Source: Candidatus Saccharimonadota bacterium
Lineage (GTDB): Bacteria > Bacillota_I > Bacilli_A > Mycoplasmatales > Hepatoplasmataceae
Assembly: GCF_000582535.1 (NCBI RefSeq)
Contig: NZ_CP006932.1
Coordinates: 210,001 to 242,000 of the forward strand
DNA length: 32,000 bases
Direction of reading: 5' to 3'
Made by a program: the position numbers and the translations under genes. The notes beneath the pieces were generated by a model, which worked only from the letters and a program-made list of their open reading frames with translations, was not told the DNA's origin and made no database searches. Below are positions 5,483-32,000 of the stretch, one piece after another (position 1 is the first letter of the stretch; every line of letters begins with the position of its first letter).

Positions 5483-8404
5483 ATGAAAAAATTTTCAATT
5501 TTATTTCTTATTCCTATTTTGTTATTAGGTATAAAAACTCCTAAATTAAAGGAATTAAATGATATAGAAATAAGTCAAAATGATACTATTATTAGTTTAT
5601 CTTTGAATTCTTATCATAGTGGAATTACCGTTAATACTAATAATGATGGTTACGCCGATACTCTTTATATGTGAGGAGATAATTCTTTTGGTCAACTTGG
5701 TGATGGAACAACAGAAGATTCTTTAGTTCCAATAAAAATAATTCCTCAAGGACAAGCTGATTGAAGCGGTAATTTAATTGATTTATCTTTAGGAGATTCT
5801 CATTCAGGAGTAACAGTTGATACTGATTTAGATGGTTATGCTGATACACTTTATATTTGAGGATCAGATAAATTTGGTCAAATTGGAAATGGATCAATTA
5901 GCAATAATATTTTAATTCCAATAAAAATAACTCCTCAAGGACAAACTGATTGAAGCGGTAATTTAATTGATTTATCTTTAGGAGATTATAATTCAGGAGT
6001 AACAGTTGATACTGATTTAGATGGTTATGCTGATACACTTTATATGTGAGGGTTAAATAATAGCGGTCAAATTGGAAATGGATCAAGTGGAAATAATATT
6101 TCAATTCCAACAAAAATAACACCTCAAGGACAAACTGATTGAGGTGGTAATTTAATTGATTTATCCTTAGGATACAATCATACAGGAGTAACGGTTGATA
6201 CTGATTTAGATGGATTTGGTGATACTCTTTATATGTGAGGAGATAATACATATGGTCAAATTGGAAATGGATCAAATGGCAATAATATTTTAATTCCAAC
6301 AAAAATAGCACCACAAGGACAAACTGATTGAGGTGGTTATTTAATTGATTTATCTTTAGGAAATACTAATACTGGAATTTTAATTGATAGTGATTTTGAT
6401 CAAAATGCCGATACTCTTTATATATGAGGAGATAATCTATATGGTCAAATTGGTGATGGAACAACAAAAGATTCTTTAGTTCCAAAAAAAATAACACCTC
6501 AAGGACAAACTGATTGAGGTGGTAACTTAATTGATTTAGCTTTAGGCCCATCAACTCGAAGTGCAGGAGTTTTAGTTGATGTAAATAATGATCAAAATGC
6601 CGATACTCTTTATATGTGAGGAGATAATTCTTCTGGTCAACTCGGAGATGGAACAACAAAAGTTTCTTCAATTCCAAAAAAAATAACACCTCAAGGACAA
6701 ACTGATTGAAGTGGTAATTTAATTGATTTATCTTTAGGATCATCTCATTCGGGTGTAATAGTTGATATTGATTTCGATGGTTATGCGGATACACTATATA
6801 TGTGAGGATATAATGCTTTTGGTCAACTTGGAGATGGAACAACAATAAGTGAAAGTTATCCAAAATTAATTATTTCATCTTCTCCGTTTTTTATCAAAAA
6901 TTTAGATTTTTTTAGTTATAACAACAAAATTGAATTTAATCTTGAAATAGATGATTATCAAAATATTATAAATGAAGCCCCAGAAGTAATATTAACTGAT
7001 CAAAATGATATTCAATATCAAACAACTTTTATTGCTGATAAATCAAATATTGATAATGATCAATACTATTATCAAGTTAATAATACTTTATATGGCGATA
7101 GTTATAACTTTACAGAAATTTTAATAAATGATAACAGTTTTAACATTGAGCAAAATCAAATATTAACTGATTATTTAATTTCTAATTATAGTTTTATTTC
7201 CTCTACCGAAGAAGAAGCAATTTTATCACTAGATTTAAGTCAAAATAGTGATAATTTTAATCTTGATAATTACACAAATGAACAAAAGCAAATAAATGTT
7301 AATTATACAAATCTTGATAATAATATTAATAATTCACAGCAATTTATTTTAGATCAAACAAATCAAATAAAATTAATAAATCTAAATGCAGAAACAAATT
7401 ATCAAATAGATTCAATTCAATATTTTTATGAAGATGGAAATTATAAATATACAATTGATCAAGAAGCGATGCAATTTCAAACAATTCCTGCAAATCCTAT
7501 TATTTTAGCAGATTCAATTTTAATTATAGAAAATTCAATTACAGCGAATTCTTTTCAATATACAATTGAAATTAATAATTTAAAAATAAATGAAACAAAA
7601 GATAATTTTACACAATATGATATAAATAATGGTATTTGATTAATTGATGAAAATGGCGAAAGTTATAATTCTTCTTTTATTGATGCAAAATTAATTACAA
7701 ATGGAGAAATTAATGGAACACAGAATTATCAATTAACTTTTTTGCAAGAAAATTTAATTAGTGGTCAAACTTATAATTTTACTGGAATTGGTTTTAATGA
7801 TCCAAATGGATCAAATCCTGATACGGTAAATTTTTCAAATTTAATTATAGTTGAGACGACTTTAGTAAATAAAGCCTTTGTTGATAATTCATTTTTAATA
7901 GATCAAAATTCAATTACAACAAATTCTTTTCAATATACAATTGAAATTGATAATTTAATATTAAGTAATGACTTAGAAGAAGAACCTATTTTTTCAAATT
8001 TTGATTTAAATGGAATTCTTTATTTAAAAGATCAAAATAATAATATTTATTCTTCTTATTATATTTCGAATAGTGCTTTAAATCTTGGAATAGGAGAAGA
8101 AGAAGGAACATTTAAATATCAATTTAGATTTGAAGTTAATAATTTAGAACCTAATACTAATTATAATTTTATTAGTTTAAGCTTTACAGATAATTTTGAT
8201 GATACATCTCTAGATATTTCAGAAAATGGTCAAATTATAACTGATAGTAATGCTTCCGCTAAGATAATTATTTATACAATAATTATTATCTTAATATTAA
8301 TTATATTGTTAACTATAATTTTATTATTTATTGATTTAAAAATGAAAAATAAAACAAAAAGAATGGCTGAAGCATTAGATAATCCTGATAATTATAATAA
8401 TTAG
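5483..8404 (+). CDS. surface-anchored RCC1-like seven-blade beta-propeller repeat protein (973 aa) with repeated-module stalk and C-terminal TM anchor
   Basis: Track ORFs 5483..5674 and 7742..8404 share a frame, and hand translation between them is open with many TGA=Trp. The N-terminus is signal-like (MKKFSILFLIPILLLGI). There are seven repeats of LGxSHSGVTVDTDLDGYADTLY(M/I)WGxNxxGQ(L/I)GDGT...P.KITPQGQTDW(G/S)GNLIDL. The C-terminus IIIYTIIIILILIILLTIILLFI is followed by a basic tail. Confidence 0.85.
5590..6860 (+). repeat. in-frame tandem coding repeats, period 186-192 nt, about 7 copies (propeller blades)
   Basis: The conserved Trp TGA of the LY(M/I)WG motif occurs at 5672, 5858, 6047, 6236, 6425, 6617 and 6803. 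Long stretches are nearly identical, e.g. caaggacaaactgattgaggtggtaatttaattgatttatc. Confidence 0.9.
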
Positions 8405-15352: not shown

Positions 15353-15353
15353 A

Positions 15354-15381
15354 AAAAAGAGAACTAAAAGTTCTCTTTTTT
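15354..15381. terminator. bidirectional terminator hairpin between convergent genes
   Basis: aaaaagagaac-taaaa-gttctcttttt, with an A-run 5' and a T-run 3', so it can serve both strands. Confidence 0.65.
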
Positions 15382-15390
15382 AAAATATTA

Positions 15391-16173: not shown

Positions 16174-16740
16174 ATTTATTATCTTTCTGCACCATATTAT
16201 ATTATTTTTCACTGAATTAGATTCAAGAATTATTTTAAATAATTTAAATTTATTTACTGTAATTGGTTCTTCTGAATTTAAATAACATATATGATTATTT
16301 ATTTCAATTTTTTTTAAACTCGGTCTTTCTTTTGAAGAAATTTGATAAATTACAACTTTATGATTATTTTTTGTATTCGGATCATTTATAAAATATGGTC
16401 TATTTTTATTCTCTGAGTCTTTATATTTATAATCTAAAATTTTATTATCATTTAAATAAATTACTTCTTTATTTTTTACTTTTAAATTAGCATTTACATA
16501 TTTCTTAAATTTTTTCTTAAGATTACTAAAATATTTTGTATCATTTTCATCTATTAAAAAATTATCATATTTTTCAAAATACTTATCTTTACAATCAATC
16601 CTTTGATATTCGATAAAATTTTGATATTTATTCGTTCAATTTTTAAATTGTTCTAAAACATTAATTCCTACTTTTTCTGAAATAAAAATTTTAAATTTTA
16701 TTTCTAGCAAATTAAATTTATCAAAATTTTTTTCTTTCAT
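16174..16740 (-). CDS. hypothetical protein, paralog B of the 13659..14180 family; no stop codon, reads in frame into SDR paralog 1
   Basis: ATG 16740. Starts MKEKNFDKFNLLEIKFKIF and ends ICYLNSEEPITVNKFKLFKIILESNSVKNNIIWCRKIIN, running directly into MKYTLITGASS. Hand translation finds no TAA/TAG between 16740 and 15394. Under code 4 a single 449-codon ORF 15391..16740 is equally callable. Confidence 0.55.
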
Positions 16741-16750
16741 TTCATTTTAA

Positions 16751-17506
16751 TTAAACTCAACGAATATCATAATAACCATCATTCATTTTTAATTCATTAT
16801 TTTTAATTATTCCAAGAATATTATCACTTTTATATAATTTGTAAGTTTCCTCTGCTAATTCTTGTGCTGATTTTTTATTTACTCTATTTTTATATTCTTC
16901 AATTTGTTTTTGATTATATTTTGTTTTTGTTAAGGCTCGATCGTTAAATTCACTTTCGGTTGCTCCGGGGGCTAAAATTTTTACTTTAATTTTTTTATTT
17001 AATTTTCTTAATTGTTTTGCAACGCTTTCTGTTCATGATGATACAAAAACTTTTGAAGCTGAATAACTTATTGCTTTTGAAAAAATACTATAACCAGCAA
17101 CAGAAGATACATTTATTAATTGAACATCATTATCTAAATTATCTTTAATAAACATTATTGAAAGTGTTGTTAATGATTTAATATTTAGATCAATCATTTT
17201 TTCAATTTTTTTAATATCTGAATCTCAAGGTAAATTTACATCTCCAAATCCAGCATTATTTATAAAAATTTCAATTTGATATTTTTTTACATTTTTATAA
17301 AAATTTTGTATTTCATTAGAATTAGATAAATCGACAGTAAATACAATAACATCAATTTTATATTTACTTTCTAATTGATTTTTAATTTCATTTAATAAAT
17401 TTGTTCTTCTTGCTGCAATTATAAGGTTATGTCCCTCTTTTGCAAATTTTTCAGCAAGTGCTTTTCCGATTCCTGAACTTGCTCCTGTAATTAATGTATA
17501 TTTCAT
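16751..17506 (-). CDS. SDR-family NAD(P)-dependent oxidoreductase (paralog 2, 251 aa)
   Basis: RBS AGGAG lies 6 nt upstream of ATG 17506. Track ORF 17225..17527 continues through TGA codons to TAA 16751-16753. Contains TGASSGIGKA, NNAG and YSASK. Confidence 0.85.
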
Positions 17507-17738
17507 TTTTATCTCCTTTCTAAACAAATTATATTATTTTTTAAATGATTATTTAAATTTTCAATATATGTATCTTTCTTTATTTTAATTCATATTATTT
17601 TCTAAAAAAAAGATATATTTTCTTAAAAAATAAAAAGAATATAATTATTTTGAAAAGTGAAAATAAAATAAGCTTTTTTTAGGGGATTTTTAATTTTTAT
17701 GTATTAAAAATTAATAATTAAATAAAGGGATAAAAATT

Positions 17739-18950
17739 ATGATTAATATAAATTCAGAGTATAAAAAACTTAAAAAAGTTCTTTTGCATAGACCTGGTTG
17801 AGAAACAGAAAATTTAACACCAAGTACTTACGAACGTTTACTTTTTGATGATTCTTATTATTTAAAAGAGGCACAAAGAGAACATGATGAATTTGCTAAA
17901 TTACTTAAAAGTAAAGGCGTGGAAGTTTTTTATTTGGAAAATTTAATTGCTGAAACAATTTCAATTTCAAAAGATATTAAAGAAAATTTTTTAAAAGAAT
18001 TTATTATAGAGGGAGAGGTTTCACATCATTCACATCTTTATATAAGAGTAAAAAAATATCTTGATTCTTTCAAAAATAATAATGAACTTATTTTAAAATT
18101 GATGGCAGGAATTAGATTTAGTGAACTCCCAAATGTTGGAGGGAAAAAATCTCTGAGAGAATTAGAAAGTCAGAGCGATGTTTTTGTTCTTGATCCACTT
18201 CCAAATTTAATTTTTACAAGAGATCCATTTGCTTCACTTGGAAATGGGGTAACAATTCATAAAATGACTTTTAAAACAAGACGAAGAGAAACAAAGTTTG
18301 CTGAGTATATTTTTAAATATCATCCAGATTACAAAAATACACCTTTATATTACAATAGGAATCGATCAACAAGTATTGAAGGTGGAGATATAATGATTCT
18401 TTCTAAAACAGATATTGCTGTTGGAATATCACAACGAACAAATCCTGATTCACTTGAAAAATTAGCACATAATCTATTTGAAGATAAGAAATCTAAAGTT
18501 TTAAGAATTTGAGGAATATCAATTCCAAAAGGGAGATCTTGAATGCATTTAGATACAGTATTTACACAAATTGATATTAATAAATTTGCAATTTTTTCAA
18601 ATTATAAATTTGAAATCTTTCAGATAGCAAAAACAGGAAGCGATTTTAAAATAACTTCGGAAAAAATGTCAATTGATCAGTTGATGTCTAAAATTTTTAA
18701 TATTAAAAAAGTTACACTTATTCATTGTGGAGGGCAAGATCCAATTCATTCTGAACGTGAACAATGAAATGATGGATCAAATGTTCTTGCAATTGCTCCT
18801 AATGAAGTTATTGCTTATGATCGAAACCATGTAACAAATGATTTAATGCGAAAACATGGAGTTATTGTTCATGAAATTCCATCATATGAACTTTCAAGAG
18901 GACGCGGGGGACCAAGATGTATGTCTATGCCTCTTGAAAGAGAAGATTAA
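17739..18950 (+). CDS. arcA: arginine deiminase
   Basis: ATG 17739 is in frame with track ORFs 17919..18512 and 18543..18767. Contains [32 protein letters not shown] and the C-terminal [10 protein letters not shown] (catalytic Cys). Confidence 0.95.
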
Positions 18951-18972
18951 TTATTTATAAAAAGGAACAAAG

Positions 18973-19965
18973 ATGACAATTAATTTAAAAAATAGATCAA
19001 TACTTACAGTTGCTGATCTAACAACAGAGGAAGTTAAATATTTATTAAATCTTTCTCAAGATTTAAAAAAAGCAAAAAAATCAGGAAAAGAAACTTCAGA
19101 ATACAAAAAAAGCAATAAAAATATTGCAGTTATTATGCAAAAAACATCAACTCGAACAAGATCGGCATTTGAAGTTGCGGCAATGAATTTAGGAATTGGA
19201 ACAACTTATATTTCTGGATCAGATTCACAAATGGGAATTAAAGAATCGATGGAAGATACTGCAAAAGTTATGGGAAGATTTTATGATGGAATTGCTTTTC
19301 GTGGATTTAAGCATCAAGATGTCGAAATTCTAGCAAAAAATGCTGGAGTTCCTGTGTGAAATGCTCTTACAGATAAATGACATCCAACACAAATGTTTGC
19401 TGATTATCTTACAGTACTTGAAAATTTTAAAACAACCAAAGTTAAATTTGTTTTTTTTGGTGATGCTAAAAATAATATGGGAAACTCACTTGTTGTAATG
19501 TCTGCTCATATGGGAGCTCATTTTGTTGGCTGTGCACCAAAAACATATTGACCTTCTGATGAAGTTATCAAAAAAGCAAATGAAATTGCAAAAAAAACAG
19601 GAGCAAAAATTGAGTTTACAGAAGATCCAATGATTGCTTCCAAAGATGCTGATGTTCTTTATACAGATATTTGAGTATCAATGGGTGAACCAGATGAAGT
19701 TTGAAAAAAAAGAATTCATGATTTAAAACCTTATCAAATTAATAAAAAATTAATGAATAATGCAAAAAAAACAGCAATTTTTATGCATTGTTTACCATCA
19801 TATCATGATTTAAATACAGATATTGCAAAAGAAATTAGCAAAAAATTTGGACTTAAAGAATTTGAAGTTACTGATGAAGTATTTAGATCAAATCAATCAA
19901 AAGTATTTGATGAAGCTGAAAATAGAATGCATACAATAAAAGCAATTATTGCTGCTACTATTTAG
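18973..19965 (+). CDS. arcB: ornithine carbamoyltransferase (catabolic)
   Basis: Track ORFs 18973..19359 and 19753..19965 share a frame and join through TGA codons. Contains STRTR, HPTQ, DIWVSMG and HCLP. Confidence 0.95.
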
Positions 19966-20031
19966 TTTTTATATTTTTTAACTTAAAAAAATATAGTTAA
20001 ATATAAATAAAAAAAGAGGTGAAAATTTATT

Positions 20032-21639
20032 ATGTCGGAAGAGACAGAAATTAAGCCGCTAAAATCTAAAACTGATAATTCAGTTGATGATAGTGGTAAA
20101 AAAAAGCGCAAATTTAAAATGCCTTCTGCTTTAATTATAATTTTAGGAATTATTGTTATTGTTACAATTCTTACTTGAGGATTTCAAGGGCAAAGTTATA
20201 ATTATTATGATCAAAATGGTAATCCTGTTGCTTCTACAGTTACTGCGGTTGGTTTATTTTCAATTCCTGTTTATATAATTGAAGGATTTGCAAATGCTGC
20301 AGGAATTATATTTTATTTATTTGTTTTAGGTTGATTTTTAGATGTAGTAATTGGAAGTGGAGCGATGGAAAGTGGGATTAAATCGCTTATTTCTGGATTA
20401 CATGGAAAAGAAATTATTTTAGTTCCTATAATGTTTTTCTTATTTGCTTTGGGAGGAACAACTTATGGTATGCAAGAAGAAACGTTAGCTTTTTATTTAA
20501 TTATAATTCCAATGTTTTTACTTGCTGGATTTGATACAGTAACAGGACTTTTAGTAATTCTTTTAGGAACAACAACAGGATTTGCTTCATCTGTAATAAA
20601 TCCTTTTTCTATTGGTGTTGCGGTAGATTCTATCAATAATGTAAATATAATTATTGATGGCCAAACTATCAATATTACAATGGGTGATGGAATGATTGCA
20701 AGATTAATTATGTTTATTATTCTTACTACTGTAGGTTGTATATTTATGACATTATATGCAATGAGAATAAAAGCAAAACCAGAAAAATCATTAACATATA
20801 AAACACATAATAATGATGTTGAATGAGCAAAAGAAACTTTTAAAACTTCAACGGCAGAAAATAAGAAAATGAATGGACGACAAAAATGAATTCTTTCAAT
20901 TTTTGGAATTACATTTTTAATTATGTTTTTAGGAATGTTTCCTTGATATACATTTTTTAATGATGGAATTCCAAGAAATAATATTGATAATGATGGTTGA
21001 AATTCATGATTAATTGGGGGAATGAGTACATTTGGAGCTTGAGATTTTCCTGAATTAATTTTATTATTTACTGCTTCTACCATTGTGATTTCTTTAATTG
21101 CAAAAATGCGAGGTAGTCAAATAATGGAATCCTTTTGAAGAGGATCAAAAGATATGCTAAGTGTAGCAATTATTATTGCGGTTGCTCGAGCAATTCCTGG
21201 AATTTTAGCTGCCTCTGGATTAGATTATTATATTGCTCAAGGAATTGGGGGAGCAATAAGTAATGTAGGAGCATGAGGATGATCATATACAATGTTTATT
21301 GTCTTTTTTATCTTTGGATTATTAATTCCTTCTACATCAGGATTAGCAGCAGCAACAATGGGAACATTTTCAATAATAGCATCACAAATTGCATCTTTTA
21401 ATACAAGTCCAGAACAATTTACACAAATATTAATTGTAACTACTTGTGTTTATGCATTAGCAGTTGGAATGATTAATATGTTTATTCCTACACAAGCTGT
21501 TGTTATGCTTTCTTGTGAAAAGGCAAGAGTTCCTTATGGAACGGCTTTAAAACCAATTGGAATTTATCTTGGAATACAATTAGTAGTAACGCTTGCAATA
21601 ATAATTCCATTATTACAGATTGTTGCAAATAATTACTAA
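20032..21639 (+). CDS. YfcC/DcuC-like anaerobic C4-carrier-family membrane transporter, putative arginine/ornithine antiporter
   Basis: ATG 20032 with a GAGGTG RBS. Track ORFs 20365..20826 and 21292..21639 share a frame, and the ORF is open through many TGA codons. It is polytopic and hydrophobic throughout. It sits between arcB and arcC, as in other Mollicutes/Firmicutes ADI operons. Confidence 0.75.
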
Positions 21640-21674
21640 TATAAAAAGAAAGAATTAATATTAATAAATATATT

Positions 21675-22616
21675 ATGAAAAATAAACGCATAGTCCTTGC
21701 TTTAGGTGGTAATGCTTTAGGTGATACTCCAAAAGAACAACAAGAAGCAGTAAAAAAAACAGCAATTTCTATTGTTGATTTAATTGAAAAAGGATATCAA
21801 ATTTTAATAGGACATGGAAATGGACCTCAAGTTGGGATGATTTCTTTAGCTTTTGATGAAGCTTCAAAAATTAATAAAAAGATACCAAAATTAGATTTAG
21901 TTCTTGCAGGAGCAATGTCTCAAGGTTATATAGGAATTCATTTAAAAAATGCAATTGATAATGAACTTTTAAAAAGAAAAATTAATAAAAATGTTTATGC
22001 ATTAATTTCACAAGCAATAGTTGATCATAATGATCCAGCTTTTAAAAATCCAACAAAACCAATTGGAGGATTTTATTCAAAAGAAGAATCAAAAGAATTA
22101 GCAAAAAATACTACATGAAAATTTATAGAAGATGCTGGAAGAGGCTATCGAAGAGTTGTTCCTTCTCCTAAACCAATTACATTAATGGAAAAAGATTTAA
22201 TTAATAAAGGATTAGATGCTGGTTTTATTTTAATTGCTGGAGGTGGAGGTGCTATTGCAACTTATAAAGAAAATGATAAATATAATATGATTGATGCAGT
22301 AATAGATAAAGATTATACTGCAGAAATAATGGCTGAAATGATTGATGCTGATTTATTTATAATAGTAACTGCAGTAGATGGAATTTATTTAGATTATAAT
22401 ACACCAAACCAAAGAATTCTTTCTAATCCAAAAATAAAGGATTTAAAAAAACTTCTTGATCAAAAAATATTTCCTTCTGGTTCTATGGAACCTAAAGTTG
22501 AAACAGCAGTAAAATTTGCTTCTTCCAAAAAAAGCAGAAAATCAATTATTACTTCGCTTGCAAAATTAAAAGAATCTTTAGAAGGAAATAAATATGGGAC
22601 ACATATTGAAAACTAA
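21675..22616 (+). CDS. arcC: carbamate kinase
   Basis: Track ORFs 21675..22118 and 22185..22616 share a frame and join over one TGA. Contains RIVLALGGNAL, GHGNGPQVG, AGRGYRRVVPSP and GGGGAIA. Confidence 0.95.
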
Positions 22617-22660
22617 TATTTAATTAATTTTTTATATTATTTTATAGATTAAATATTCTA

Positions 22661-22699
22661 AAATAATTATTAAATCTAAATTTAATAATTATTTTTTTT
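22661..22699 (+). terminator. candidate rho-independent terminator of the ADI operon
   Basis: aaataattattaaat-ctaa-atttaataattattt (15-bp all-AT stem) followed by a T-run. Confidence 0.45.
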
Positions 22700-23353
22700 A
22701 TTTAAAGTATATGAGATTAATTTAAAGATAAAACCAATATATAATTATCTTAATAAAAGGAAATAGAATAATGAATCAAAATAAAATTGAAAAAATTATT
22801 ATATTAATTATTTTGAAAATACAAAAGATGAGAATATTTCTAAATGAATAAAAAAACATTTAAATTCATTGAAAGATTTAAATTTTGAGTTAAATAAATT
22901 TAAAGAAGAAAATTTAAAATTAATAAGTAAATTAGATGATCAGATAAATAATAAATTTAATTTAAAAAAAGAAGAAAAAAAACTAAGTAAAATATATTAA
23001 TTAATGATTTGAATAAATGAAAATTTAAATTTTATTTTTAATATCATATACAATTTATGAATTTATTGTTGATAATCAAATTGATTATTTTTCTGAAATT
23101 GAAGAAATTTTTTCAATTTTTATTTCTTTATCTATATTTATAATGATTTTATATTTTTCTTTATTTATTGAAAAAAACAAAAAACAACAAAAAATAAAAA
23201 AAGGTTCGGAAAAAAACAATCAAGAAAATAAAAGAATAATATTAGAATGAGATTTTTATAATACGAAGGGAAAAGAAATTATATTAAAAGATAATATTGA
23301 AAATTAAAAAGAATTAGATATAAATATGAAAAAAGAAAATAATTAATATAAAT

Positions 23354-23385
23354 AAAAGGAGCAGAAAATTAATTCTGCTCCTTTT
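23354..23385. terminator. terminator hairpin downstream of SDR paralog 3
   Basis: aaaaggagcagaa-aattaa-ttctgctcctttt. GC-containing stem, T-rich on both sides. Confidence 0.65.
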
Positions 23386-23392
23386 ATTTATA

Positions 23393-24157
23393 TTACATTC
23401 AAATTTTACGTAAACGTTTTCTTAAAATGAATTTTTTAAATACAGGATGAACAATTCCAACTGTTTTTTTTGAATTATATAATTTTCAAGTATATTCAGC
23501 TAGTTTCTGTGGGTCTTTTCCTTTACTATTAAAAATTTCAATTAGTGTTTTTTTATTTTCTTTTTCAATATTTGCATTTAGTACTGCTACTTCTGCAAAT
23601 TCTGTTTTTGTAATACTTGGAGCTAAAACTTTAACTTTTAATTTTGCTTTGCTTTTTTTAAGAATTTTTGTGATTATTTCACTATATACAGATACATAAA
23701 ATTTAGTAGCTGAATAGATAGATTCTCTTCCTCAAGCCATATATCCTGCTACAGAAGAAACATTGATAATTTGTGATTCTTTTTCTAAATTATCTTTGAT
23801 AAATAATGTTGTAAGGATTGTAAGGGCTTTTATATTTAAATCAATCATTTGTTCTGCCTTTTTAAGATCAGTATCTCATGGTTTTGCTTCATCACCAAAA
23901 CCAGCATTATTTACCAAAAGATTAATATCATTTTGCTTGATTTGTTGATAGAATTTATAAACATTTTCTGAAATTGATAAATCATATACATAAACTAAAA
24001 CTTTTATTTTATATTTATCTTCTAATTCTTTTTTTAAATTATCAAGTAATTCTTTTCTTCTTGCAACAATTATTAAATTATATTTCTCGCTTGCAAATTT
24101 TATTGCAATTTCTTTTCCAATTCCAGAACTTGCTCCTGTTATTACTACATATTTCAT
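23393..24157 (-). CDS. SDR-family NAD(P)-dependent oxidoreductase (paralog 3, 254 aa)
   Basis: Track ORF 23876..24157 continues through TGA codons to TAA 23393-23395. Contains MKYVVITGASSGIGKE, NNAG and YSATK. Confidence 0.85.
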
Positions 24158-24187
24158 ATTTTCGTTTTTCTTTCTTTTATTTAATTT

Positions 24188-24463
24188 TTAATAGTATTTT
24201 GAAAATACTATCATTGGTGTTAAAACATGATTATAAAGTTGACCTAATACTAATTGACTATTAGTATTAGAATCTCACACATAAACAATATCTCCTAATA
24301 CATTATTATTTTAATCTAAAAGTAACATAGCATCATCATTTCCTACTTGTTTTTTAATAATATTATCATTTTAATCTTTTTCTTGTTATGTTATTTTTGT
24401 AATTGGAAAATTTAAAGTATTTGATTCTCCATTTTCAATTTGTCCATATTGATTTTTCTTCCA
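24188..24463 (-). pseudogene. inverted remnant of about 1.5 RCC1-like propeller blades with in-frame stops
   Basis: One reverse frame reads LWKKNQYGQIENGESNTLNFPITKIT*QEKD*NDNIIKKQVGNDDAMLLLD*NNNVLGDIVYVWDSNTNSQLVLGQL. It aligns with a one-residue gap to the blade consensus YMWGDNxYGQIGNG...IPTKITPQGQTDWGGNLIDL..G...GV.VD.D.DG.GDTLYMWGDNxxGQ. Confidence 0.6.
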
Positions 24464-25075
24464 CAAGCAATAGTTGATCATAATGATCTAGCTTTTAAAA
24501 ATCCAACAAAACCAATTGGAGGATTTTATTCAGAGCAAGAGGCAAAAAAAATAACAAAAGAGACTGGATGAAAATTTATAGAAGATGCTGGAAGAGGCTA
24601 TCGAAGAGTTGTTCCTTCTCCTAAACCAATTACATTAATGGAAAAAGATTTAATTAATAAAGGATTAGATGCTGGTTTTATTTTAATTGCTGGAGGTGGA
24701 GGTGCTATTGCAACTTATAAAGAAAATGATAAATATAATATGATTGATGCAGTAATAGATAAAGATTATACTGCAGAAATAATGGCTGAAATGATTGATG
24801 CTGATTTATTTATAATAGTAACTGCAGTAGATGGAATTTATTTAGATTACAATACACCAAACTAAAGAATTCTTTCTAATTCAAAAATAAAGGATTTAAA
24901 AAAACTTCTTGATCAAAAAATATTTCCTTTTGGTTCTATGGGTCCTAAAGTCGAAACAGTTATTAAATTTACTAATTCAAAATTAAATAGAAAATAAATT
25001 ATTATTTCGCTTGATAAATTAAAAGAATCTTTAGAAGGAAATAAATACAGAATTCATATTGAAAATAATTATTAA
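24462..25075 (+). pseudogene. truncated carbamate kinase copy (3' two-thirds of arcC) with premature stops
   Basis: Homologous to arcC from codon ~110 (SQAIVDHND) to the end, and it lacks the 5' third. CAA is replaced by TAA at 24863-24865, and there is a second in-frame TAA near 24996. Track ORF 24638..24865 is identical in protein to arcC 22185 onward. Confidence 0.85.
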
Positions 25076-25097
25076 ATTAATTAATATATGATTTTTA

Positions 25098-25105
25098 TGT
25101 ATAAT
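25098..25105 (+). promoter_or_regulatory. extended -10 promoter element TGTATAAT
   Basis: Exact TGTATAAT 23 nt upstream of ATG 25128. RBS AAGAGG at 25113-25118. Confidence 0.4.
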
Positions 25106-25127
25106 TTTTTATAAGAGGTCTTTTATA

Positions 25128-28103
25128 ATGAAAAAAAATTTTATATTTTCGATATTATTATTTTTAATTACATCTTTTTCTTTTAAATCATTTGATTTAA
25201 TTTTTGATAATAAAAATATAATTGAATCTTTAGATCAAAATGTAAAAGTTTTAGATTATGAAATGGCTGATTCTACTGCTGGTGTTATTGTTGATACAGA
25301 TAGTGATTATTTGGGAGATACACTTTATATGTGAGGATTAAATAGTCGTGGTCAAATTGGTGATGGAACAACTACACTTGCCACTGATCCAAAAATGATA
25401 ACTCCAACTGACCAAACAGATTGAGGTGGTAATTTAATTCAATTTGAATCATCACTTTATAATTCAGGTGTAACGGTAGATACTGATTATGATGGCTATG
25501 CAGATACAATTTATATTTGAGGAGATAATCAATATCATCAAATATTCAATGATGAAAGTGAAAGTAAAACTATTTTATTTCCTACTCTTGTTTTACCTTC
25601 TAGTGGATCTTGAAATGGAAATATTATTGATTTTTTTCTTGGAGACTCATATGTTGGTATTTTATTAGATACTGATTATGATGGATTTGGTGATGATTTA
25701 TATACTTGAGGTAATAATAATAATGGGGAACTTGGAAATGGAACAACTCAAACAGCTTCTGAACCTGTAGAAATATTTCCATCTGGACAAACTTCTTGAA
25801 ATGGTAATATAACTGATATTTATGGATATAATTCTACTTTTCTTTTATTAGATACTGACTATGATGGATATGCAGATACTGGATATTCTTGAGGTAATAA
25901 TAGTAATTATAAATTAGGTATTAATAGTACATCATCAAGTGTTACTACTCCAACAGAAATCGTTTCAAATGGGGGAACTTGAAATGGTAATATCCTTGAT
26001 GTTTCTTCAAATTCTGATAATTCTATGCTTTTACTTGATACAAATTTTGATGGATATGGAGATGAAGTTTATTTATCAGGGACTAATTATGAATTTCAAC
26101 TTGGAATTGGTGGCAATGAAAATTATGTAAAGCACTCTATTTTTTATCCTGCTAGTCATACTTGAGGTAATGGTTATATTATTGATGTTTCAATGGGCAA
26201 AAATTATTCAGTAATTATTGTAGATACTGATTTAGATGGATATGCAGATGCTTTTTATGGTGATGGTTATAATAGTCATGGACAACTTGGAACATCTAAT
26301 TATGCAGGTAGTCGTAAAGGACCAAGAAAACTTACAAAAACCTTTGATAGAAATGATTTTTCTAGTTATTATAAATATAATTTTATGCAAATTGAAACAG
26401 GAACTAATTCTACAGGAATTTTAGTTGATACTGATCTTGATGGATATGGCGATACATTATATATGTCAGGAGCAAATGTAAATTCTGATTTCGGTAATAG
26501 TATTATTTCTTCTGGAGATTATAAAACTCCTATTGCTACAAATTCAACTTATGATTTTTTAATTCAGGATTTGTATTTTGATTTTGATGGAGTTTTGTTA
26601 TCAATAGATTTAAAATTAAATGATTATCAAAATATTTTTAATGAAGAAACATTACCCACTAATGTTTTATTAATTGATGATAATAATATCAGTCACCAAA
26701 CAATTTTTGAAGAAGATTTATCAAATATTACAGATGATCAATATCATTATAAAGTTGAAGATATTGAAGGTGTTCAAACTTATATATTTAAAAATATATC
26801 AATAAATGATAATATTTTTAATTTAAATGATGAGCAATTTTCTACTGATTATTTAATATCAGATTATCAAATTTCTAATATTTCAGAACAGTCAGCGACA
26901 ATTAATTTAAATTTTGAAAATAATAGTGAAGAATTTGATTTATTAAATTACACTTCTTCTGAACGAAAAATTAAAGTAAATTATACTGATTTGGATCAAA
27001 ATATCTCTAATTCCCAAGAATTTGTAATTGATGATTCCTATGAAATTACACTAATAAATTTAAATGCTGAATCAAATTATCAAATAGATTCAATTCAATA
27101 TTTTTATCAAGATGAAAATTATAAACATACTATAGATCAAGAAAAAACACAATTTCAAACATCTTCTGCTATACCTTTAATAGAATCTGATAGTATAAAA
27201 TCTATCGATAATTCAATTACAACAAATTCTTTTCAATATACAATTTTAATTGATAATTTAAAATTAAATCAAACAAAAGATAATTTTACACAATATGATA
27301 TAAATAATGGTATTTGATTAATCGATGAAAATAATGAAAATTATAATTCAACTTATATTAATGCAAAAATAATTAATTCTGGTTCAATAAATGGAACAGG
27401 AAAATATCAATTAACATTTAAGCAAGATCAATTAATTGAAAATACAACATATAATTTTATTGGTATAAGTTTTGATGAGCCTTCAAGTTCTAGTGATCCT
27501 AATATAGTATTTTTTTCTAATGTTTTTTCAATAACAACAGCTTCTGCAAATAAAGAAATTATTCCTTCTACTTTTTCAATAATTGAGGATTCAATTACAA
27601 AAACTTCATTTCAATATACAATTGAAATAGATAATTTGTTTTTGATAGAGGATTCTTTATTAATTAAAAATAATCTTGAAGCAGAAATAAATTTTAGTAA
27701 TTTTAATCTTGATGAAGGAATTTATTTAATAGATGATAATGGAAATATATATAATTCTTTTTATGTAAATGATAGTTCACTTTATCTTGGAGAAGGAAAA
27801 GATGAAGGAACTTCAAATTATCAATTTACATTTGAACAAAATAATCTTGAAGCAGGCAGAACATATAATTTTGTTGGAATAGGATTTACTGATTTAGAAG
27901 AAGACTTTATTAATTTTGACTCTTCAATAGCAATTAACACTGTTCCTAATAATACACAAATGATAGTAATTATTATTATTATCATTATTTTAATCATTAT
28001 TTTGCTACTTATTTTTATCTTATTATTTGTTGATTTAAAAATGAAAAAAAATACAAAAAAAATGAATAATAAACTTAATAATCCTAATGGTTTGGAAGAT
28101 TAA
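25128..28103 (+). CDS. surface-anchored RCC1-like seven-blade repeat protein, paralog 2 (991 aa)
   Basis: Track ORFs 25128..25334, 26193..27317 and 27636..28103 are all in one frame, and the gaps checked by hand are open through TGA codons. The N-terminus is signal-like. There are seven degenerate blades (GDTLYMWGLNSRGQIGDGT through GDTLYMSGANVNSDFG). It has the same stalk modules and the same TM plus basic tail as 5483..8404. Confidence 0.85.
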
Positions 28104-28261
28104 GATTTATTTTTAATTTCTTTGTTTTATAAAATTAATTATTAAATATATTTATTTTAGTCGTAATTTTTTTATAGCTACTAAAAAAAACAACAAGAAG
28201 AATTAAAAAAAGTAATTCTAATTGTTAATTTAATTTAAAAAAGAAAATTAAGAAAATATTT

Positions 28262-28799
28262 AATGCTTTAATTTCACAATCATAGCCAATCTTAATGATT
28301 CTGTTTTTAAAAATTCAGCAAAACAAATTGGAGGATATTTTATTCAAAAGAAGAATCAGAAAAATTAGCAAAATCTAATGGATGAAAATTTATAGAATAT
28401 TTTGTAAGAATTTATTGAAAAATTGTTTCTTTTCTTAAATCGATTACATTAATGGTAAAAATATTTAATTAAAAAAATTTAGATAATTGATAAAGATTAT
28501 ACTGCTGAAAAAATGTCTGAAATGATTGATATTGATTTATTTGTAATAGTAACTGCAGTAGATGGAATTTATTTAGATTACAATACACCAAACCAAAGAA
28601 TTCTTTTTAATCCAAAAATAAAAGATTTAAAAAAACTTCTTAATTAAATAATATTTCCTTCTGGTTCTATGGGTCCTAAATTGGAAACAAATATTAAATT
28701 TACCAATTCCAAATTAAATAGAAAATCAATTATTACTTCGCTTGATAAATTAAAAGAATCTTTAGAAGGAAATAAATACGTAACTCATATCGAAAAATA
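28262..28799 (+). pseudogene. more degraded truncated carbamate kinase copy
   Basis: aatgctttaatttcacaatcatagcc...caaattggagga aligns to arcC 22000-22075. There is an internal deletion of about 95 nt relative to arcC 22215-22310, plus multiple stops and frameshifts. The 3' end gaaggaaataaatacgtaactcatatcgaaaaataa matches the arcC terminus. Confidence 0.8.
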
Positions 28800-28829
28800 A
28801 TTACTAAATTAATAAGTATATGATTTTTA

Positions 28830-28837
28830 TGTATAAT
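28830..28837 (+). promoter_or_regulatory. extended -10 promoter element TGTATAAT
   Basis: Same gatttttatgtataatt context as at 25091-25107. Confidence 0.4.
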
Positions 28838-28856
28838 TCTTTATAAGAGGTCTTTT

Positions 28857-31826
28857 TTGAAAAAAAATTTTATTTTTTCCATATTGTTGTTTTTAATTAC
28901 ATCTTTTTCTTTTAAATCATTTGACTTAGTTTTTGATAATAAAAATATAGTTGAATCTTTAGATCAAAATGTAAAAGTTTTAGATTATGAAATGGCTAAT
29001 TCTACTGCTGGTGTTATTGTTGATACAGATAGTGATTATTTGGGAGATACACTTTATATGTGAGGATTAAATAATTATGGCCAAATTGGTGATGGAACAA
29101 CTACACTTGCAACTGATCCAAAAATGGTAATTCCAACTGACCAAACAGATTGAGGTGGCAATTTAATTCAATTTGAATCATCTGCTTATAATTCAGGTGT
29201 AACAGTAGATACTGATTATGATGGTTATGCAGATACAATTTATATTTGAGGAGATAATAGATATCATCAAATATTTAACAACGATGAAAGTGGTTCTATC
29301 TTATTTCCTACTCTTGTTTTACCTTCTAGTGGATCTTGAAATGGAAATATTATTGATTTTTTTCTTGGAGATGCATATGCTGGTATTTTATTAGATACTG
29401 ATTATGATGGATTTGGTGATGATTTATATACTTGAGGTAATAATAATAATGGGGAACTTGGAAATGGAACAACTCAAACAGCTTCTGAACCTTTAGAAAT
29501 ATTTCCATCTGGACAAACTTCTTGAAATGGTAATATAACTGATATTTATGGATATAATTCTACTTTTCTTTTATTAGATACTGATTATGATGGATATGCA
29601 GATACTGGATATTCTTGAGGTAATAATAATAATTATAAATTAGGTGTCAATAGTACATCATCAAAAGTTACTACTCCAACAGAAATCGTTTCAAATGGAG
29701 GAACTTGAAGTGGTAATATTCTTGATGTTTCTTCAAATAGTAATAATTCTATGCTTTTACTTGATACAAATTTTGATGGATATGGAGATGAAGTTTATTT
29801 ATCAGGGACTAATTATGAATTTCAACTTGGAATTGGTGGCAGTAATAATGTAAAGCACTCTATTTTTTATCCTGCTAGTCATACTTGAGGTAATGGTTAT
29901 ATTATTGATGTTTCAATGGGTGTAAATTATTCAGTAATTATTGTAGATACTGATTTAGATGGATATGCAGATGCTTTTTATGGTGATGGTTATAATAGTC
30001 ATGGACAACTTGGAACATCTAGTTATGCAGGTAGTCGTAAAGGACCAAGAAAACTTACAAAAACCTTTGATAGAAATGATTTTTCTAGTTATTATAAATA
30101 TAATTTTATGCAAATTGAAACAGGATCTAATTCTACAGGAATTTTAGTTGATACTGATCTTGATGGATATGGTGATACATTATATATGTCAGGAGCAAAT
30201 GTAAATTCTGATTTCGGTAATAGTATTATTTCTTCTGGAGATTATAAAACTCCTATTGCTACAAATTCAACTTATGATTTTTTAATTCAGGATTTGTATT
30301 TTGATTTTGATGGAGTTTTGTTATCAATAGATTTAAAATTAAATGATTATCAAAATATTTTTAATGAAGAAGCATTACCCACTAATGTTTTACTAATAGA
30401 TAATAATAATATCAGTCATCAAACAATTTTTGAAGAAGATTTATCAAATATTACAGATGATCAATATCATTATAAAGTTGAAGATATTGAAGGTGTTCAA
30501 ACTTATATATTTAAAAATATATCGATAAATGATAATATTTTTAATTTAAATGATGAGCAATTTTCTACTGATTATTTAATATCAGATTACCAAATTTCTA
30601 ATATTTCAGAACAATCAGCGACAATTAATTTAAATTTTGAGAATAATAGTGAAGAATTTGATTTATTAAATTACACTTCTTCTGAACGAAAAATTAAAGT
30701 AAATTATACTGATTTGGATCAAAATATCTCTAATTCACAAGAATTTGTAATTGATGATTCCTATGAAATTACACTAACAAATTTAAATGCTGAATCAAAT
30801 TATCAAATAGATTCAATTCAATATTTTTATCAAGATGAAAATTATAAACATACTATAGATCAAGAAGAAAAACAATTTCAAACATCTTCTGCTATACCTT
30901 TAATAGAATCTGATAGTATAAAATCTATCGATAATTCAATTACAACAAATTCTTTTCAATATACAATTTTAATTGATAATTTAAAATTAAATCAAGCAAA
31001 AGATAATTTTACACAATATGATATAAATAATGGTATTTGATTAATCGATGAAAATAGTGAAAATTATAATTCCACTTATATTAATGCAAAAATAATTAAT
31101 TCAGGTTCAATAAATGGAACAGGAAAATATCAATTAACATTTAAGCAAGATCAATTAATTGAAAATACAACATATAATTTTATTGGTATAAGTTTTGATG
31201 AACCTTCAAGTTCTAGTGATCCTAATATAGTATTTTTTTCTAATGTTTTTTCAGTAACAACAGTTTCTGCTAATAAAGAAATTATTCCTTCTACTTTTTC
31301 AATAATTGAAGATTCAATTACAAAAACTTCATTTCAATATACAATTGAAATAGATAATCTGTTTTTGATAGAAGATTCTTTATTAATTAAAAATAATCTT
31401 GAAGCAGAAGTAAATTTTAGTAATTTTAATCTTGATGAAGGAATTTATTTAATAGATGATAATGGAAATATATATAATTCTTTTTATGTAAATGATAGTT
31501 CGCTTTATCTTGGAGAAGGAAAAGATGAAGGAACTTCAAATTATCAATTTACATTTGAACAAAATAATCTTGAAGCAGGTAGAACATATAATTTTGTCGG
31601 AATTGGCTTTACCGATTTAGAAGAAGATTTTATTAATTTTGACTCTTCAATAACAATTAATACTGTTCCTAATAATACACAAATGATAGTAATTATTATC
31701 ATTATCATTATTTTAATCATTATTTTGCTACTTATTTTTATCTTATTATTTGTTGATTTAAAAATGAAAAAAAATACAAAAAAAATGAATAATAAACTTA
31801 ATAATCCTAATGGTTTGGAAGATTAA
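28857..31826 (+). CDS. surface-anchored RCC1-like seven-blade repeat protein, paralog 3 (989 aa), apparent TTG start
   Basis: Track ORFs 28857..29063, 29916..31040 and 31365..31826 share one frame. It is near-identical to 25128..28103, with only a handful of substitutions in the 374-aa track segments. The position homologous to the ATG of paralog 2 is TTG, after a 3-nt deletion. Confidence 0.8.
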
Positions 31827-31959
31827 GATTTATTTTTAATTTATTTGTTTTAGTGGTATTTTTTTTATAGCATATTAAAAAAAACAATAATTCTAATTTT
31901 TAATTAAATCGAAAAATAATATCAAATTTTAATAGTACATCAGAATTGACTATAATTTA

Positions 31960-32000
31960 AAATTATTTATTTAGCATTTGATGAAGCTTTAAAAATTAAT
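31960..32000 (+). pseudogene. start of a further arcC-derived fragment (runs off the window)
   Basis: atttatttagcatttgatgaagctttaaaaattaat aligns to arcC 21840-21876 (atttctttagcttttgatgaagcttcaaaaattaat). Confidence 0.55.

What the first reader, a model, noticed from the sequence alone, without database searches (positions are those of the whole stretch)
24462..32000. Tandem amplification of an [arcC-fragment + RCC1-like surface gene] cassette, probably continuing past the window
Two cassettes of about 3.72 kb are almost identical. Their coding regions differ by a few substitutions and small indels. Each begins with a decayed 3' portion of a carbamate kinase gene, followed by the same promoter (TGTATAAT), RBS and a ~990-aa gene. 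A third arcC-derived fragment starts at about 31960, so more copies may follow. The unit boundaries lie inside arcC-like sequence, which implies the duplication arose by recombination involving an ancestral second carbamate kinase gene next to the surface gene. Recent amplification of a surface protein gene is typical of contingency or antigenic-variation loci in Mollicutes.
Basis: seen in the sequence. Interest (0 to 1): 0.7.

Follow-up and report, generated by a model that had tools for sequence, protein, structure and literature searches.

The report
Tandem surface-protein genes with kinase pseudogenes
A gut symbiont of woodlice carries a head-to-tail array of three near-identical genes for a membrane-anchored propeller-shaped surface protein, each preceded by a dead copy of the neighbouring carbamate kinase gene; this is real but ordinary gene-family expansion, and no on/off switching system was found.

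Summary
The window comes from Candidatus Hepatoplasma crinochetorum Av, which reads TGA as Trp. Two cassettes of about 3.7 kb (24459-28183 and 28184-31875) are 95% identical overall and 96.9% in the coding region. Each holds a carbamate kinase pseudogene, a TGTATAAT -10 box, an AAGAGG ribosome-binding site and an intact gene of about 990 aa. That gene encodes a seven-bladed RCC1-like propeller, a beta-sandwich stalk and a C-terminal membrane anchor. A third pseudogene starts near 31850, not 31960. Consecutive protein accessions show exactly one more copy beyond the window, after which the array ends.

The intact arcC of the arc operon lies 1.8 kb upstream. In a sister strain and a sister species, arcC directly abuts an RCC1-family gene. 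The ancestral unit was therefore nearly all of arcC plus the surface gene, and no second kinase gene is needed.

The array predates the strain split, and copy number differs between strains (3 versus 2). Both window copies are under purifying selection (dN/dS 0.17-0.25). The propeller evolves faster than the stalk, and there are traces of gene conversion. I found no switch machinery, so "contingency locus" is unsupported. The protein family was already described in 2024.

The parts
21675..22616 (+). Intact arcC (carbamate kinase, 313 aa), the last gene of arcA-arcB-arcD-arcC and the source of the pseudogene copies
   Evidence: Code-4 ORF. Pfam AA_kinase E = 1.3e-27. Identical to AHK22336 'Carbamate kinase 1'.
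22644..24458 (.). A 1.8-kb segment separating arcC from the array in this strain only. It holds an SDR gene on the minus strand (23393-24157) with a hairpin terminator (23344-23395) and a decayed minus-strand RCC1 remnant (about 24164-24466). It is flanked by 638-nt direct repeats of the arcC 3' part.
   Evidence: Absent at this place in strain Tokyo2021. In H. scabrum arcC is followed after about 300 nt by an RCC1-family ORF. BLAST and tblastx of the segment. Terminator.
24459..25070 (+). arcC pseudogene 1. It covers arcC residues 111-313, has no 5' third and no start codon, and carries two in-frame stops (CAA>TAA, TCA>TAA).
   Evidence: 92% to arcC 22006-22643. tblastn with code 4. Sequence. 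RefSeq calls its longest ORF a 138-aa 'amino acid kinase family protein'.
25098..25118 (+). Putative extended -10 box TGTATAAT (25098-25105) and RBS AAGAGG (25113-25118) of copy A
   Evidence: Sequence. Conserved in copy B and in part in the Tokyo copies. The promoter scan itself is uninformative in this AT-rich DNA: 110 sites found against 100 expected.
25128..28103 (+). RCC1-like membrane protein gene, copy A (991 aa): N-terminal hydrophobic helix, seven-bladed propeller, beta-sandwich stalk, C-terminal TM helix and basic tail
   Evidence: Code-4 ORF. 100% to P0001/AHK22339. Pfam RCC1 E = 8e-30. AlphaFold2 model with pLDDT 80. Foldseek hits UVR8 and RCC1 with TM 0.81-0.87.
28104..28183 (+). 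Unit junction: the short 3' flank of the RCC1 gene joined to sequence from the arcC 5' end (about arcC nt 15-20)
   Evidence: Pairwise alignments to arcC 21646-21808. Four-way alignment of the 3' flanks.
28184..28800 (+). arcC pseudogene 2. It covers nearly the full length of arcC but has two internal deletions (arcC 21795-21952 and 22209-22299), frameshifts and stops.
   Evidence: It shares the 22209-22299 deletion and many substitutions with the Tokyo spacer pseudogene.
28830..28850 (+). Putative extended -10 box TGTATAAT (28830-28837) and RBS AAGAGG (28845-28850) of copy B
   Evidence: (family D10)
28857..31826 (+). RCC1-like membrane protein gene, copy B (989 aa, TTG start), intact
   Evidence: Code-4 ORF. 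Equals P0064/AHK22340. 96.3% aa and 96.9% nt identity to A. Branch-specific excess of synonymous changes.
31848..32000 (+). arcC pseudogene 3, cut by the window end. It covers arcC residues about 8-67, carries three stops, and keeps the stretch that pseudogene 2 has lost.
   Evidence: 31876-32000 against 21751-21875 at 78%..
5483..8404 (+). Dispersed paralog RCC1-C (973 aa, 47% aa identity to A) with the same architecture. It shows that the family is not confined to the array.

Best explanation
The locus is a three-copy head-to-tail array of paralogous genes in Ca. Hepatoplasma crinochetorum Av. Each gene encodes a type-I membrane protein: an N-terminal signal helix, a seven-bladed RCC1-like beta-propeller, a beta-sandwich stalk and a C-terminal TM anchor.

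**How the array arose (inferred)**
- A segment was duplicated in tandem. Its left end lay about 15-20 nt inside arcC, the last gene of the arginine deiminase operon. Its right end lay about 20 nt past the stop codon of the adjacent RCC1-family gene.
- Every extra unit therefore carried an arcC copy with no start codon and no promoter. These copies were dead on arrival and have since decayed through stops, frameshifts and deletions.
- The RCC1 gene in each unit kept its own promoter and RBS and stayed functional.
- Homologous unequal crossing-over and gene conversion between units then changed copy number (3 in Av, 2 in Tokyo2021) and shuffled sequence types. Conversion also spilled into the intact arcC.

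**Likely function (inferred)**
- The proteins are probably surface binding or adhesion proteins of this extracellular symbiont, which lives on the isopod midgut-gland brush border.
- The propeller is the fast-evolving ligand-binding head.

**Shown versus inferred**
- Shown: the anatomy, the pseudogene status, purifying selection on both window copies, the strain difference in copy number and the predicted fold.
- Inferred: the duplication mechanism, surface exposure and a binding function.
For: **Repeat anatomy and pseudogenes**
- Repeat structure.
- Pseudogene status.
- Junction at the arcC 5' end.

**Comparison with relatives**
- In strain Tokyo2021 the order is arcABDC, then directly RCC1 copy 1, then a 451-nt spacer with an arcC remnant, then RCC1 copy 2.
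- That remnant shares the 22209-22299 deletion with Av pseudogene 2.
- In H. scabrum arcC also abuts an RCC1-family gene.
- Gene order from accessions shows three copies in Av, followed by the same downstream genes as in Tokyo.

**Selection**
- Between A and B: dS 0.082, dN 0.020, dN/dS 0.25.
- Polarised branch counts: A has 9 synonymous and 6 nonsynonymous changes; B has 14 and 14. Both show an excess of synonymous changes with p < 0.001.
- Housekeeping genes between the strains have dN/dS of about 0.06 and a pooled synonymous divergence of 0.065.
- Among five copies, 23% of propeller residues vary against 11% of stalk residues. Type-1 versus type-2 propeller dN/dS is 0.8-0.9.

**Conversion and reshuffling**
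- The Tokyo copies are 99-100% identical over aa 701-900 although they are only 81-88% identical over aa 1-500.
- There are 29 sites with conflicting two-by-two site patterns.
- Position in the array and sequence type disagree: Av's last copy is most like Tokyo's first.
- Between-strain divergence jumps from 8 differences in 5 kb to 3-5% exactly where arcC enters the repeat unit.

**Fold**
- Pfam RCC1, AlphaFold2 model and Foldseek.
- This agrees with the published ColabFold model of the Tokyo ortholog HCTKY_2170 (PMC10928387).
Against: - The DNA beyond 32000 was not available. The third copy and the end of the array rest on protein accessions, not on sequence I read.
- The order of events cannot be resolved, because position and sequence similarity of the copies conflict. 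This covers which copy duplicated, and whether the 1.8-kb segment is an insertion in Av or a deletion in Tokyo.
- Exchange between strains could mimic some conversion signals.
- Expression of each copy is untested. Copy B has a TTG start, and the promoter assignment is by eye in DNA where consensus matches are no more frequent than chance.
- Surface exposure and binding function are inferred from the predicted topology and from the symbiont's lifestyle only.
Confidence: 0.78

Rival explanations
1. The array is a contingency or antigenic-variation locus like the mycoplasma vsa, vlp, vsp, vlhA or MgPa systems. Under this reading the cell expresses one variant at a time and switches by slipped-strand mispairing, promoter inversion or recombination with silent cassettes.
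For: - The genes are tandem paralogs of a membrane-exposed protein.
- The distal propeller evolves faster than the stalk, with dN/dS up to 0.8-0.9 between types.
- There are traces of gene conversion, and copy number differs between strains.
- An A8 tract lies directly after the start codon.
Against: - Every copy is a full-length ORF with its own -10 box and (except Tokyo copy 2) its own RBS, so none is a silent promoterless cassette.
- The A8 tract has the same length in all four copies for which DNA is available.
- No inverted repeats bracket the promoters, and no recombinase gene lies in the window. The Av genome is reported to have no mobile elements (PMC3942034).
- There is no lipobox cysteine.
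- Both window copies are under purifying selection.
- The isopod host has no antibody-based immunity (general knowledge).
Confidence: 0.1
2. The repeat is an assembly artefact: a repeat expanded or mis-joined in the published Av assembly.
For: Reads could not be inspected here.
Against: - The two cassettes differ at 185 substitutions and 10 indels, and their arcC remnants have decayed in different ways. An artefactual duplicate would be identical.
- An independent metagenome assembly of another strain has the same tandem layout with an orthologous spacer pseudogene.
Confidence: 0.02
3. The array came from recombination with a second, once independent carbamate kinase gene that sat next to the surface gene.
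For: - Pseudogene 1 and the 3' end of the intact Av arcC differ over the last 150 nt.
- There, pseudogenes 1 and 2 resemble the Tokyo arcC more than the Av arcC. This could suggest two arcC lineages.
Against: - In Tokyo2021 and H. scabrum the only intact arcC is itself the gene next to the RCC1 gene.
- The unit junction maps into that gene's 5' end.
- The mosaic pattern is what gene conversion between the gene and its own dead copies produces.
- Only one intact arcC per genome is listed for each of the three Hepatoplasma species (PMC10928387).
Confidence: 0.08

Closest known systems
RCC1-like beta-propeller proteins of Hepatoplasmataceae (Kawato et al. 2024, PMC10928387; e.g. HCTKY_2170)
   Same: This is the same family. 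Window copy A is 94.6% identical to HCTKY_2170. The published ColabFold model shows a seven-blade propeller plus four Ig-like folds, which matches my model.
   Different: The paper counts family members (7 in Tokyo2021, 10 in Ps-JP) and discusses them as possible host-interaction proteins. In the text I searched it does not mention the tandem cassette, the co-amplified arcC pseudogenes, the copy-number difference or the selection pattern.
Bacterial surface proteins with RCC1-like domains (COG5184 / 'alpha-tubulin suppressor-like RCC1 family'), e.g. in Bifidobacterium, Clostridia and Akkermansiaceae
   Same: They combine an RCC1-repeat propeller with Ig/FN3-like domains and a cell-envelope anchor. 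They are the nearest homologs outside the genus, at 25-34% identity.
   Different: Those proteins use LPXTG (PF00746) or other cell-wall modules. The wall-less Hepatoplasma protein ends in a single TM helix with a basic tail. The stalk domains have no Pfam match.
Eukaryotic RCC1 / UVR8 / HERC2 RLD propellers
   Same: They share the seven-bladed RCC1 fold (Foldseek TM 0.73-0.87) and the Pfam RCC1 repeats.
   Different: Sequence identity is only 14-18%. The Hepatoplasma domain is predicted to be extracellular and membrane-anchored, so it cannot act as a Ran exchange factor. The resemblance is at fold level.
Mycoplasma multigene surface-variation loci (vsa, vlp, vsp, vlhA, MgPa repeats)
   Same: They are clustered paralogs of surface proteins in a mollicute, with recombination or conversion between copies.
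   Different: No switch element was found, no lipoprotein signal and no silent cassettes. All copies look independently expressible.
Segmental tandem duplications that carry truncated flanking genes (generic bacterial amplicons)
   Same: The structure is head-to-tail, the junction is inside a neighbouring gene, the truncated passenger decays, and copy number later changes by unequal crossing-over.
   Different: Nothing essential. This is the class the locus belongs to.

Membership tests
RCC1-like domain proteins (Pfam PF00415 / PF25390) | Multiple RCC1 repeats scoring above the Pfam gathering threshold | tested here: met
   Copy A scores 103.6 bits on PF00415 against a cut-off of 21.7. Paralog C scores 182.7 bits. 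PF25390 (the whole-domain model) scores 100 bits for A, below its 150-bit cut-off, and 184.6 bits for C, above it.
RCC1-like domain proteins (Pfam PF00415 / PF25390) | Seven-bladed beta-propeller fold | tested here: met
   Seven DNA repeats of 183-204 nt per gene. The AlphaFold2 model has seven four-stranded blades over residues 40-470 at pLDDT mostly 80-93. Foldseek hits UVR8 and RCC1 with E of 1e-21 to 1e-17 and TM up to 0.87.
RCC1-like domain proteins (Pfam PF00415 / PF25390) | Guanine-nucleotide exchange activity on Ran-type GTPases | not testable with these tools
   This is biochemical. It is not expected for a predicted extracellular domain.
Carbamate kinase (arcC, AA_kinase PF00696) | Full-length uninterrupted ORF with the N-terminal nucleotide-binding region | tested here: not met
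   This applies to the three cassette copies. Pseudogene 1 lacks residues 1-110 and has 2 stops. Pseudogene 2 is frameshifted, carries two deletions and has stops. Pseudogene 3 has 3 stops within 42 codons. The upstream arcC at 21675-22616 does meet the feature.
Tandem segmental amplification | Head-to-tail direct repeats with a constant period and the same junction in each unit | tested here: met
   The period is 3723-3732 nt. The same junction of RCC1 3' flank to arcC 5' sequence lies after A and after B.
Tandem segmental amplification | More than two units | tested here: inconclusive
   Pseudogene 3 lies at the window edge. AHK22341 is a third copy with a consecutive accession, and AHK22342 is the downstream gene. 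The DNA of unit 3 could not be fetched.
Mollicute phase- or antigenic-variation loci | A switch element: a variable simple repeat in the promoter or 5' coding region, an invertible promoter with a site-specific recombinase, or promoterless donor cassettes | tested here: not met
   The A8 tract is invariant in 4 copies, and each copy has its own -10 box. Only chance-level AT-rich inverted repeats were found. No recombinase ORF lies in the window.
Mollicute phase- or antigenic-variation loci | Lipoprotein signal peptide with a lipobox cysteine | tested here: not met
   There is no Cys in the first 40 residues of A, B or C. Anchoring is predicted through the C-terminal TM helix 947-983.
Mollicute phase- or antigenic-variation loci | Observed on/off or variant switching within a population | not testable with these tools
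   This needs reads or expression data from populations.

The most novel reading that the evidence does not exclude
The array may be a recombination-driven diversification locus for the host-binding head of an adhesin, in an extracellular symbiont of an invertebrate. Unequal crossing-over and gene conversion would keep generating new propeller variants and copy numbers between strains. As a side effect, dead arcC copies would act as conversion donors that accelerate evolution of the functional arcC. arcC dS between the strains is 0.13, against about 0.01 for arcA, arcB and arcD.
Probability: 0.3. Interest if true: 0.5.

Novelty: new member of a known kind. Interest (0 to 1): 0.3.

Why it matters
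- The locus gives a clean, datable example of how a highly reduced genome with no reported mobile elements still expands a host-interface gene family. The arcC fossils mark the unit boundary and the order of decay.
- It flags the RCC1-propeller membrane proteins as the fastest-evolving, copy-number-variable genes in this window. That makes them reasonable candidates for attachment to the isopod brush border.
- It corrects database annotation. A 138-aa 'amino acid kinase family protein' is a pseudogene fragment.
- It does not open a new kind of biology.

Tried and rejected
**Access problems**
- The table-11 ORF list splits every gene at TGA. I replaced it with code-4 ORF calling in Python.
- The DNA downstream of the window could not be fetched.
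  - The genome-contig scan returned only H. scabrum and distant bacteria.
  - No Av gene is on record for P0001 or P0002.
  - I used accession order from cluster look-ups instead.

**Searches that found nothing useful**
- The promoter and terminator scan is uninformative here: 110 promoter-like sites against 100 expected. The only convincing hairpin belongs to the SDR gene.
- The inverted-repeat search gave only AT-rich matches at 70-79% complementarity.
- Rfam and tRNA scans of the window found nothing.

**Ideas considered and dropped**
- An 'old array' reading based on arcA-D dS of 0.01. I rejected it once other housekeeping genes gave a pooled synonymous divergence of 0.065. The arc genes are the outlier.
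- A full reconstruction of the order of duplications. I abandoned it because position and sequence type of the copies conflict and unit 3 DNA is missing.
Full report
**Source and genetic code**

The window is 19-30% G+C. Its genes are whole only when TGA is read as Trp. The table-11 ORF list breaks them, while code-4 calling gives long ORFs. Copy A is 100% identical to AHK22339 of Candidatus Hepatoplasma crinochetorum Av, on a 657,101-bp contig. This organism is an extracellular mollicute of the isopod midgut gland (PMC3942034, PMC10928387).

**Checking the observation**

- Self-BLAST aligns 24753-28129 with 28484-31852 at 96.0% over 3381 columns. Start-to-start spacing is 3723-3732 nt.
- Taken as cassettes (24459-28183 and 28184-31875), identity is 94.9%, with 185 substitutions and 10 indels.
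- Identity varies by part:
  - coding regions: 96.9% (92 substitutions, two 3-nt indels)
  - last 300 nt of the arcC remnant plus the promoter: 91.7%
  - 5' part of the arcC remnant: 75.7%
- Three points need adjusting. The substitutions are more than 'a few'. The third arcC piece starts near 31850, not 31960. Fragments 2 and 3 are not only 3' portions of arcC.

**Anatomy of the locus**

| Feature | Coordinates | Notes |
|---|---|---|
| arcA | 17739-18950 | arginine deiminase operon |
| arcB | 18973-19965 | |
| arcD | 20032-21639 | |
| arcC, intact | 21675-22616 | 313 aa |
| Strain-specific segment | 22644-24458 | minus-strand SDR gene 23393-24157 and a decayed minus-strand RCC1 remnant at about 24164-24466 |
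| Pseudogene 1 | 24459-25070 | arcC residues 111-313, two in-frame stops |
| Copy A | 25128-28103 | 991 aa |
| Pseudogene 2 | 28184-28800 | two internal deletions, frameshifts, stops |
| Copy B | 28857-31826 | 989 aa, TTG start, RBS spacing 3 nt shorter |
| Pseudogene 3 | 31848-32000+ | arcC residues about 8-67, three stops; keeps a stretch that pseudogene 2 has lost |

**Where the unit came from**

- The 3' flank of each RCC1 gene runs about 20 nt past the stop codon. It then continues into sequence that aligns with arcC from about nt 15-20 onward.
- The ancestral unit was therefore about 4 kb: nearly all of arcC, minus its start, plus the RCC1 gene.
- The sister strain Tokyo2021 (AP027132.1, locus L006) shows the expected layout:
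  - arcABDC
  - RCC1 copy 1, 49 nt after arcC
  - a 451-nt spacer with an arcC remnant
  - RCC1 copy 2
  - a minus-strand RCC1 gene and several SDR genes
- The Tokyo remnant shares the 22209-22299 deletion and many substitutions with Av pseudogene 2. The array therefore predates the strain split.
- In H. scabrum (L001) arcD-arcC is also followed directly by an RCC1-family gene.
- The donor of the fragments is thus the operon's own arcC. A second kinase gene is unnecessary.

**Beyond the window**

I could not fetch the DNA. Cluster look-ups give the Av gene order by accession:

| Accession | Gene |
|---|---|
| AHK22336 | arcC |
| AHK22338 | SDR |
| AHK22339 | copy A |
| AHK22340 | copy B |
| AHK22341 | third copy, 89% identical to A |
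| AHK22342 | 464-aa minus-strand RCC1 gene |
| AHK22343 | 95-aa protein |
| AHK22344 | SDR |

The genes from AHK22342 onward match those downstream of the Tokyo array. Av therefore has three annotated copies and Tokyo has two.

**Relationships and selection**

- The five copies form two types:
  - type 1: Av third copy and Tokyo copy 1, 92.9% aa identity
  - type 2: A, B and Tokyo copy 2, 93-96% aa identity
- Position and type disagree. Av's last copy resembles Tokyo's first.
- The Tokyo copies are 99-100% identical over aa 701-900, although they are only 81-88% identical over aa 1-500.
- 29 sites show conflicting two-by-two site patterns.
- I take these three observations as traces of gene conversion or unequal crossing-over. 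Exchange between strains is an alternative.
- Nei-Gojobori estimates with code 4:

| Comparison | dS | dN | dN/dS |
|---|---|---|---|
| A vs B, whole gene | 0.082 | 0.020 | 0.25 |
| A vs B, propeller half | | | 0.41 |
| A vs B, C-terminal half | | | 0.10 |
| Type 1 vs type 2, whole gene | | | 0.6-0.7 |
| Type 1 vs type 2, propeller half | | | 0.8-0.9 |
| Ten housekeeping genes, Av vs Tokyo | 0.065 (pooled synonymous divergence) | | about 0.06 |

- The A/B split is therefore about as old as the strain split. It is not a very recent event.
- Polarised branch counts show an excess of synonymous changes on both branches: A has 9 synonymous and 6 nonsynonymous changes, B has 14 and 14, both with p < 0.001. 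Both window copies are maintained genes.
- Among the five copies, 23% of propeller residues vary against 11% of stalk residues. Variation is mildly enriched in loops (27% versus 17.6%, p = 0.03).

**The protein**

- Pfam finds RCC1 repeats (E = 8e-30).
- An AlphaFold2 model built on 19 family members has pLDDT 80. It shows:
  - an N-terminal helix (2-16)
  - a seven-bladed propeller (40-470)
  - beta-sandwich domains (478-940)
  - a TM helix (947-983) followed by a basic tail
- Foldseek's best hits are UVR8 and RCC1, with TM 0.73-0.87.
- This repeats what Kawato et al. 2024 reported for the Tokyo ortholog HCTKY_2170: a seven-blade propeller plus four Ig-like folds, in a family of 7-10 members per genome.
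- The nearest relatives outside the genus are bacterial RCC1-family proteins, some of which carry cell-wall-anchor (LPXTG) domains, at 25-34% identity.
- Surface exposure and a binding role are inferred from this topology and from the symbiont's habitat.

**Is it a contingency locus?**

I looked for switch machinery and found none.

- The A8 tract after the start codon has the same length in all four copies with DNA.
- Each copy has its own -10 box.
- Inverted repeats are chance-level AT-rich matches.
- No recombinase ORF lies in the window. The genome is reported to lack mobile elements.
- There is no lipobox cysteine.
- The isopod host has no antibody-based immunity (general knowledge).

The tandem layout, fast propeller evolution and copy-number difference fit diversification of a host-binding protein. 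They do not show phase or antigenic variation.

**Artefact?**

This is unlikely. The cassettes differ at about 5% of positions and their pseudogenes have decayed differently. An independent assembly of another strain has the same design.

**Verdict**

The locus is an ordinary tandem paralog expansion with a hitchhiking truncated gene, in a published genome and a protein family that has already been discussed. In the papers I could search, the cassette structure, the arcC fossils and the selection pattern appear unreported. Interest is modest.

Noticed in passing
window 16723-21722, against 21723-22643: Strains Av and Tokyo2021 differ at only 8 positions across these 5 kb (SDR gene to arcD; arcA, arcB and arcD dS about 0.01). 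Elsewhere in the window divergence is 1-2%, with a pooled synonymous divergence of 0.065. Divergence jumps to 3-5% at 21723, about where arcC becomes part of the repeated unit, and arcC dS is 0.134. This suggests a recent exchange or sweep of the arc operon, plus conversion of arcC by its pseudogene copies.
   Followed up: partly
window 22644-24458, flanked by 22006-22643 and 24459-25095: A 1.8-kb segment lies between 638-nt direct repeats of the arcC 3' part. It holds small ORFs, a minus-strand SDR gene and a decayed minus-strand RCC1 remnant. It is absent between arcC and the RCC1 gene in Tokyo2021, and in H. scabrum arcC is followed after about 300 nt by an RCC1-family ORF. Over the last 150 nt, pseudogene 1 resembles the Tokyo arcC more than the Av arcC does. 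Whether this is an insertion in Av or a deletion between direct repeats in Tokyo is unresolved.
   Followed up: partly
window 24440-24865: RefSeq annotates the longest ORF of arcC pseudogene 1 as a 138-aa 'amino acid kinase family protein' (WP_128571626.1). It is a truncated fragment followed by in-frame stops.
   Followed up: yes
window 13659-14180, 15391-16740, 16751-17527, 23393-24157 (all minus strand); L006 18302-22680: This is an expanded family of short-chain dehydrogenase paralogs. It includes a 449-aa ORF that fuses an orf173-like N-terminal part with an SDR part. At least four more copies lie downstream of the array in Tokyo2021. Between-strain divergence is raised in 15331-16722.
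   Followed up: no
window 5483-8404: The dispersed paralog RCC1-C has very regular internal repeats of 186-189 nt that are 78-87% identical to each other. Between-strain differences peak in the repeat zone 5700-6900 (up to 35 per 300 nt), and dN/dS is 0.27. This suggests repeat shuffling within the gene.
   Followed up: partly
window 28857; L006 13376-13427: Copy B has lost the ATG. It has a TTG start and RBS spacing 3 nt shorter. Tokyo copy 2 lacks the RBS altogether through a 15-nt deletion, which puts TATAAT 8 nt from the ATG and may give a leaderless mRNA. The copies may differ in translation efficiency.
   Followed up: no
L001 13274-15268 (+) and 15189-16259 (-): In H. scabrum the RCC1-family sequence next to arcC is split. 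An ORF matching the N-terminal two thirds of RCC1-C and an ORF matching its C-terminal third lie on opposite strands. This looks like an inversion inside a former gene.
   Followed up: no
window 11833-13539: A GmrSD_N-domain protein gene (PF03235, a family of restriction enzymes that cut modified DNA) lies between sepF and the SDR cluster. It is conserved in Tokyo2021.
   Followed up: no
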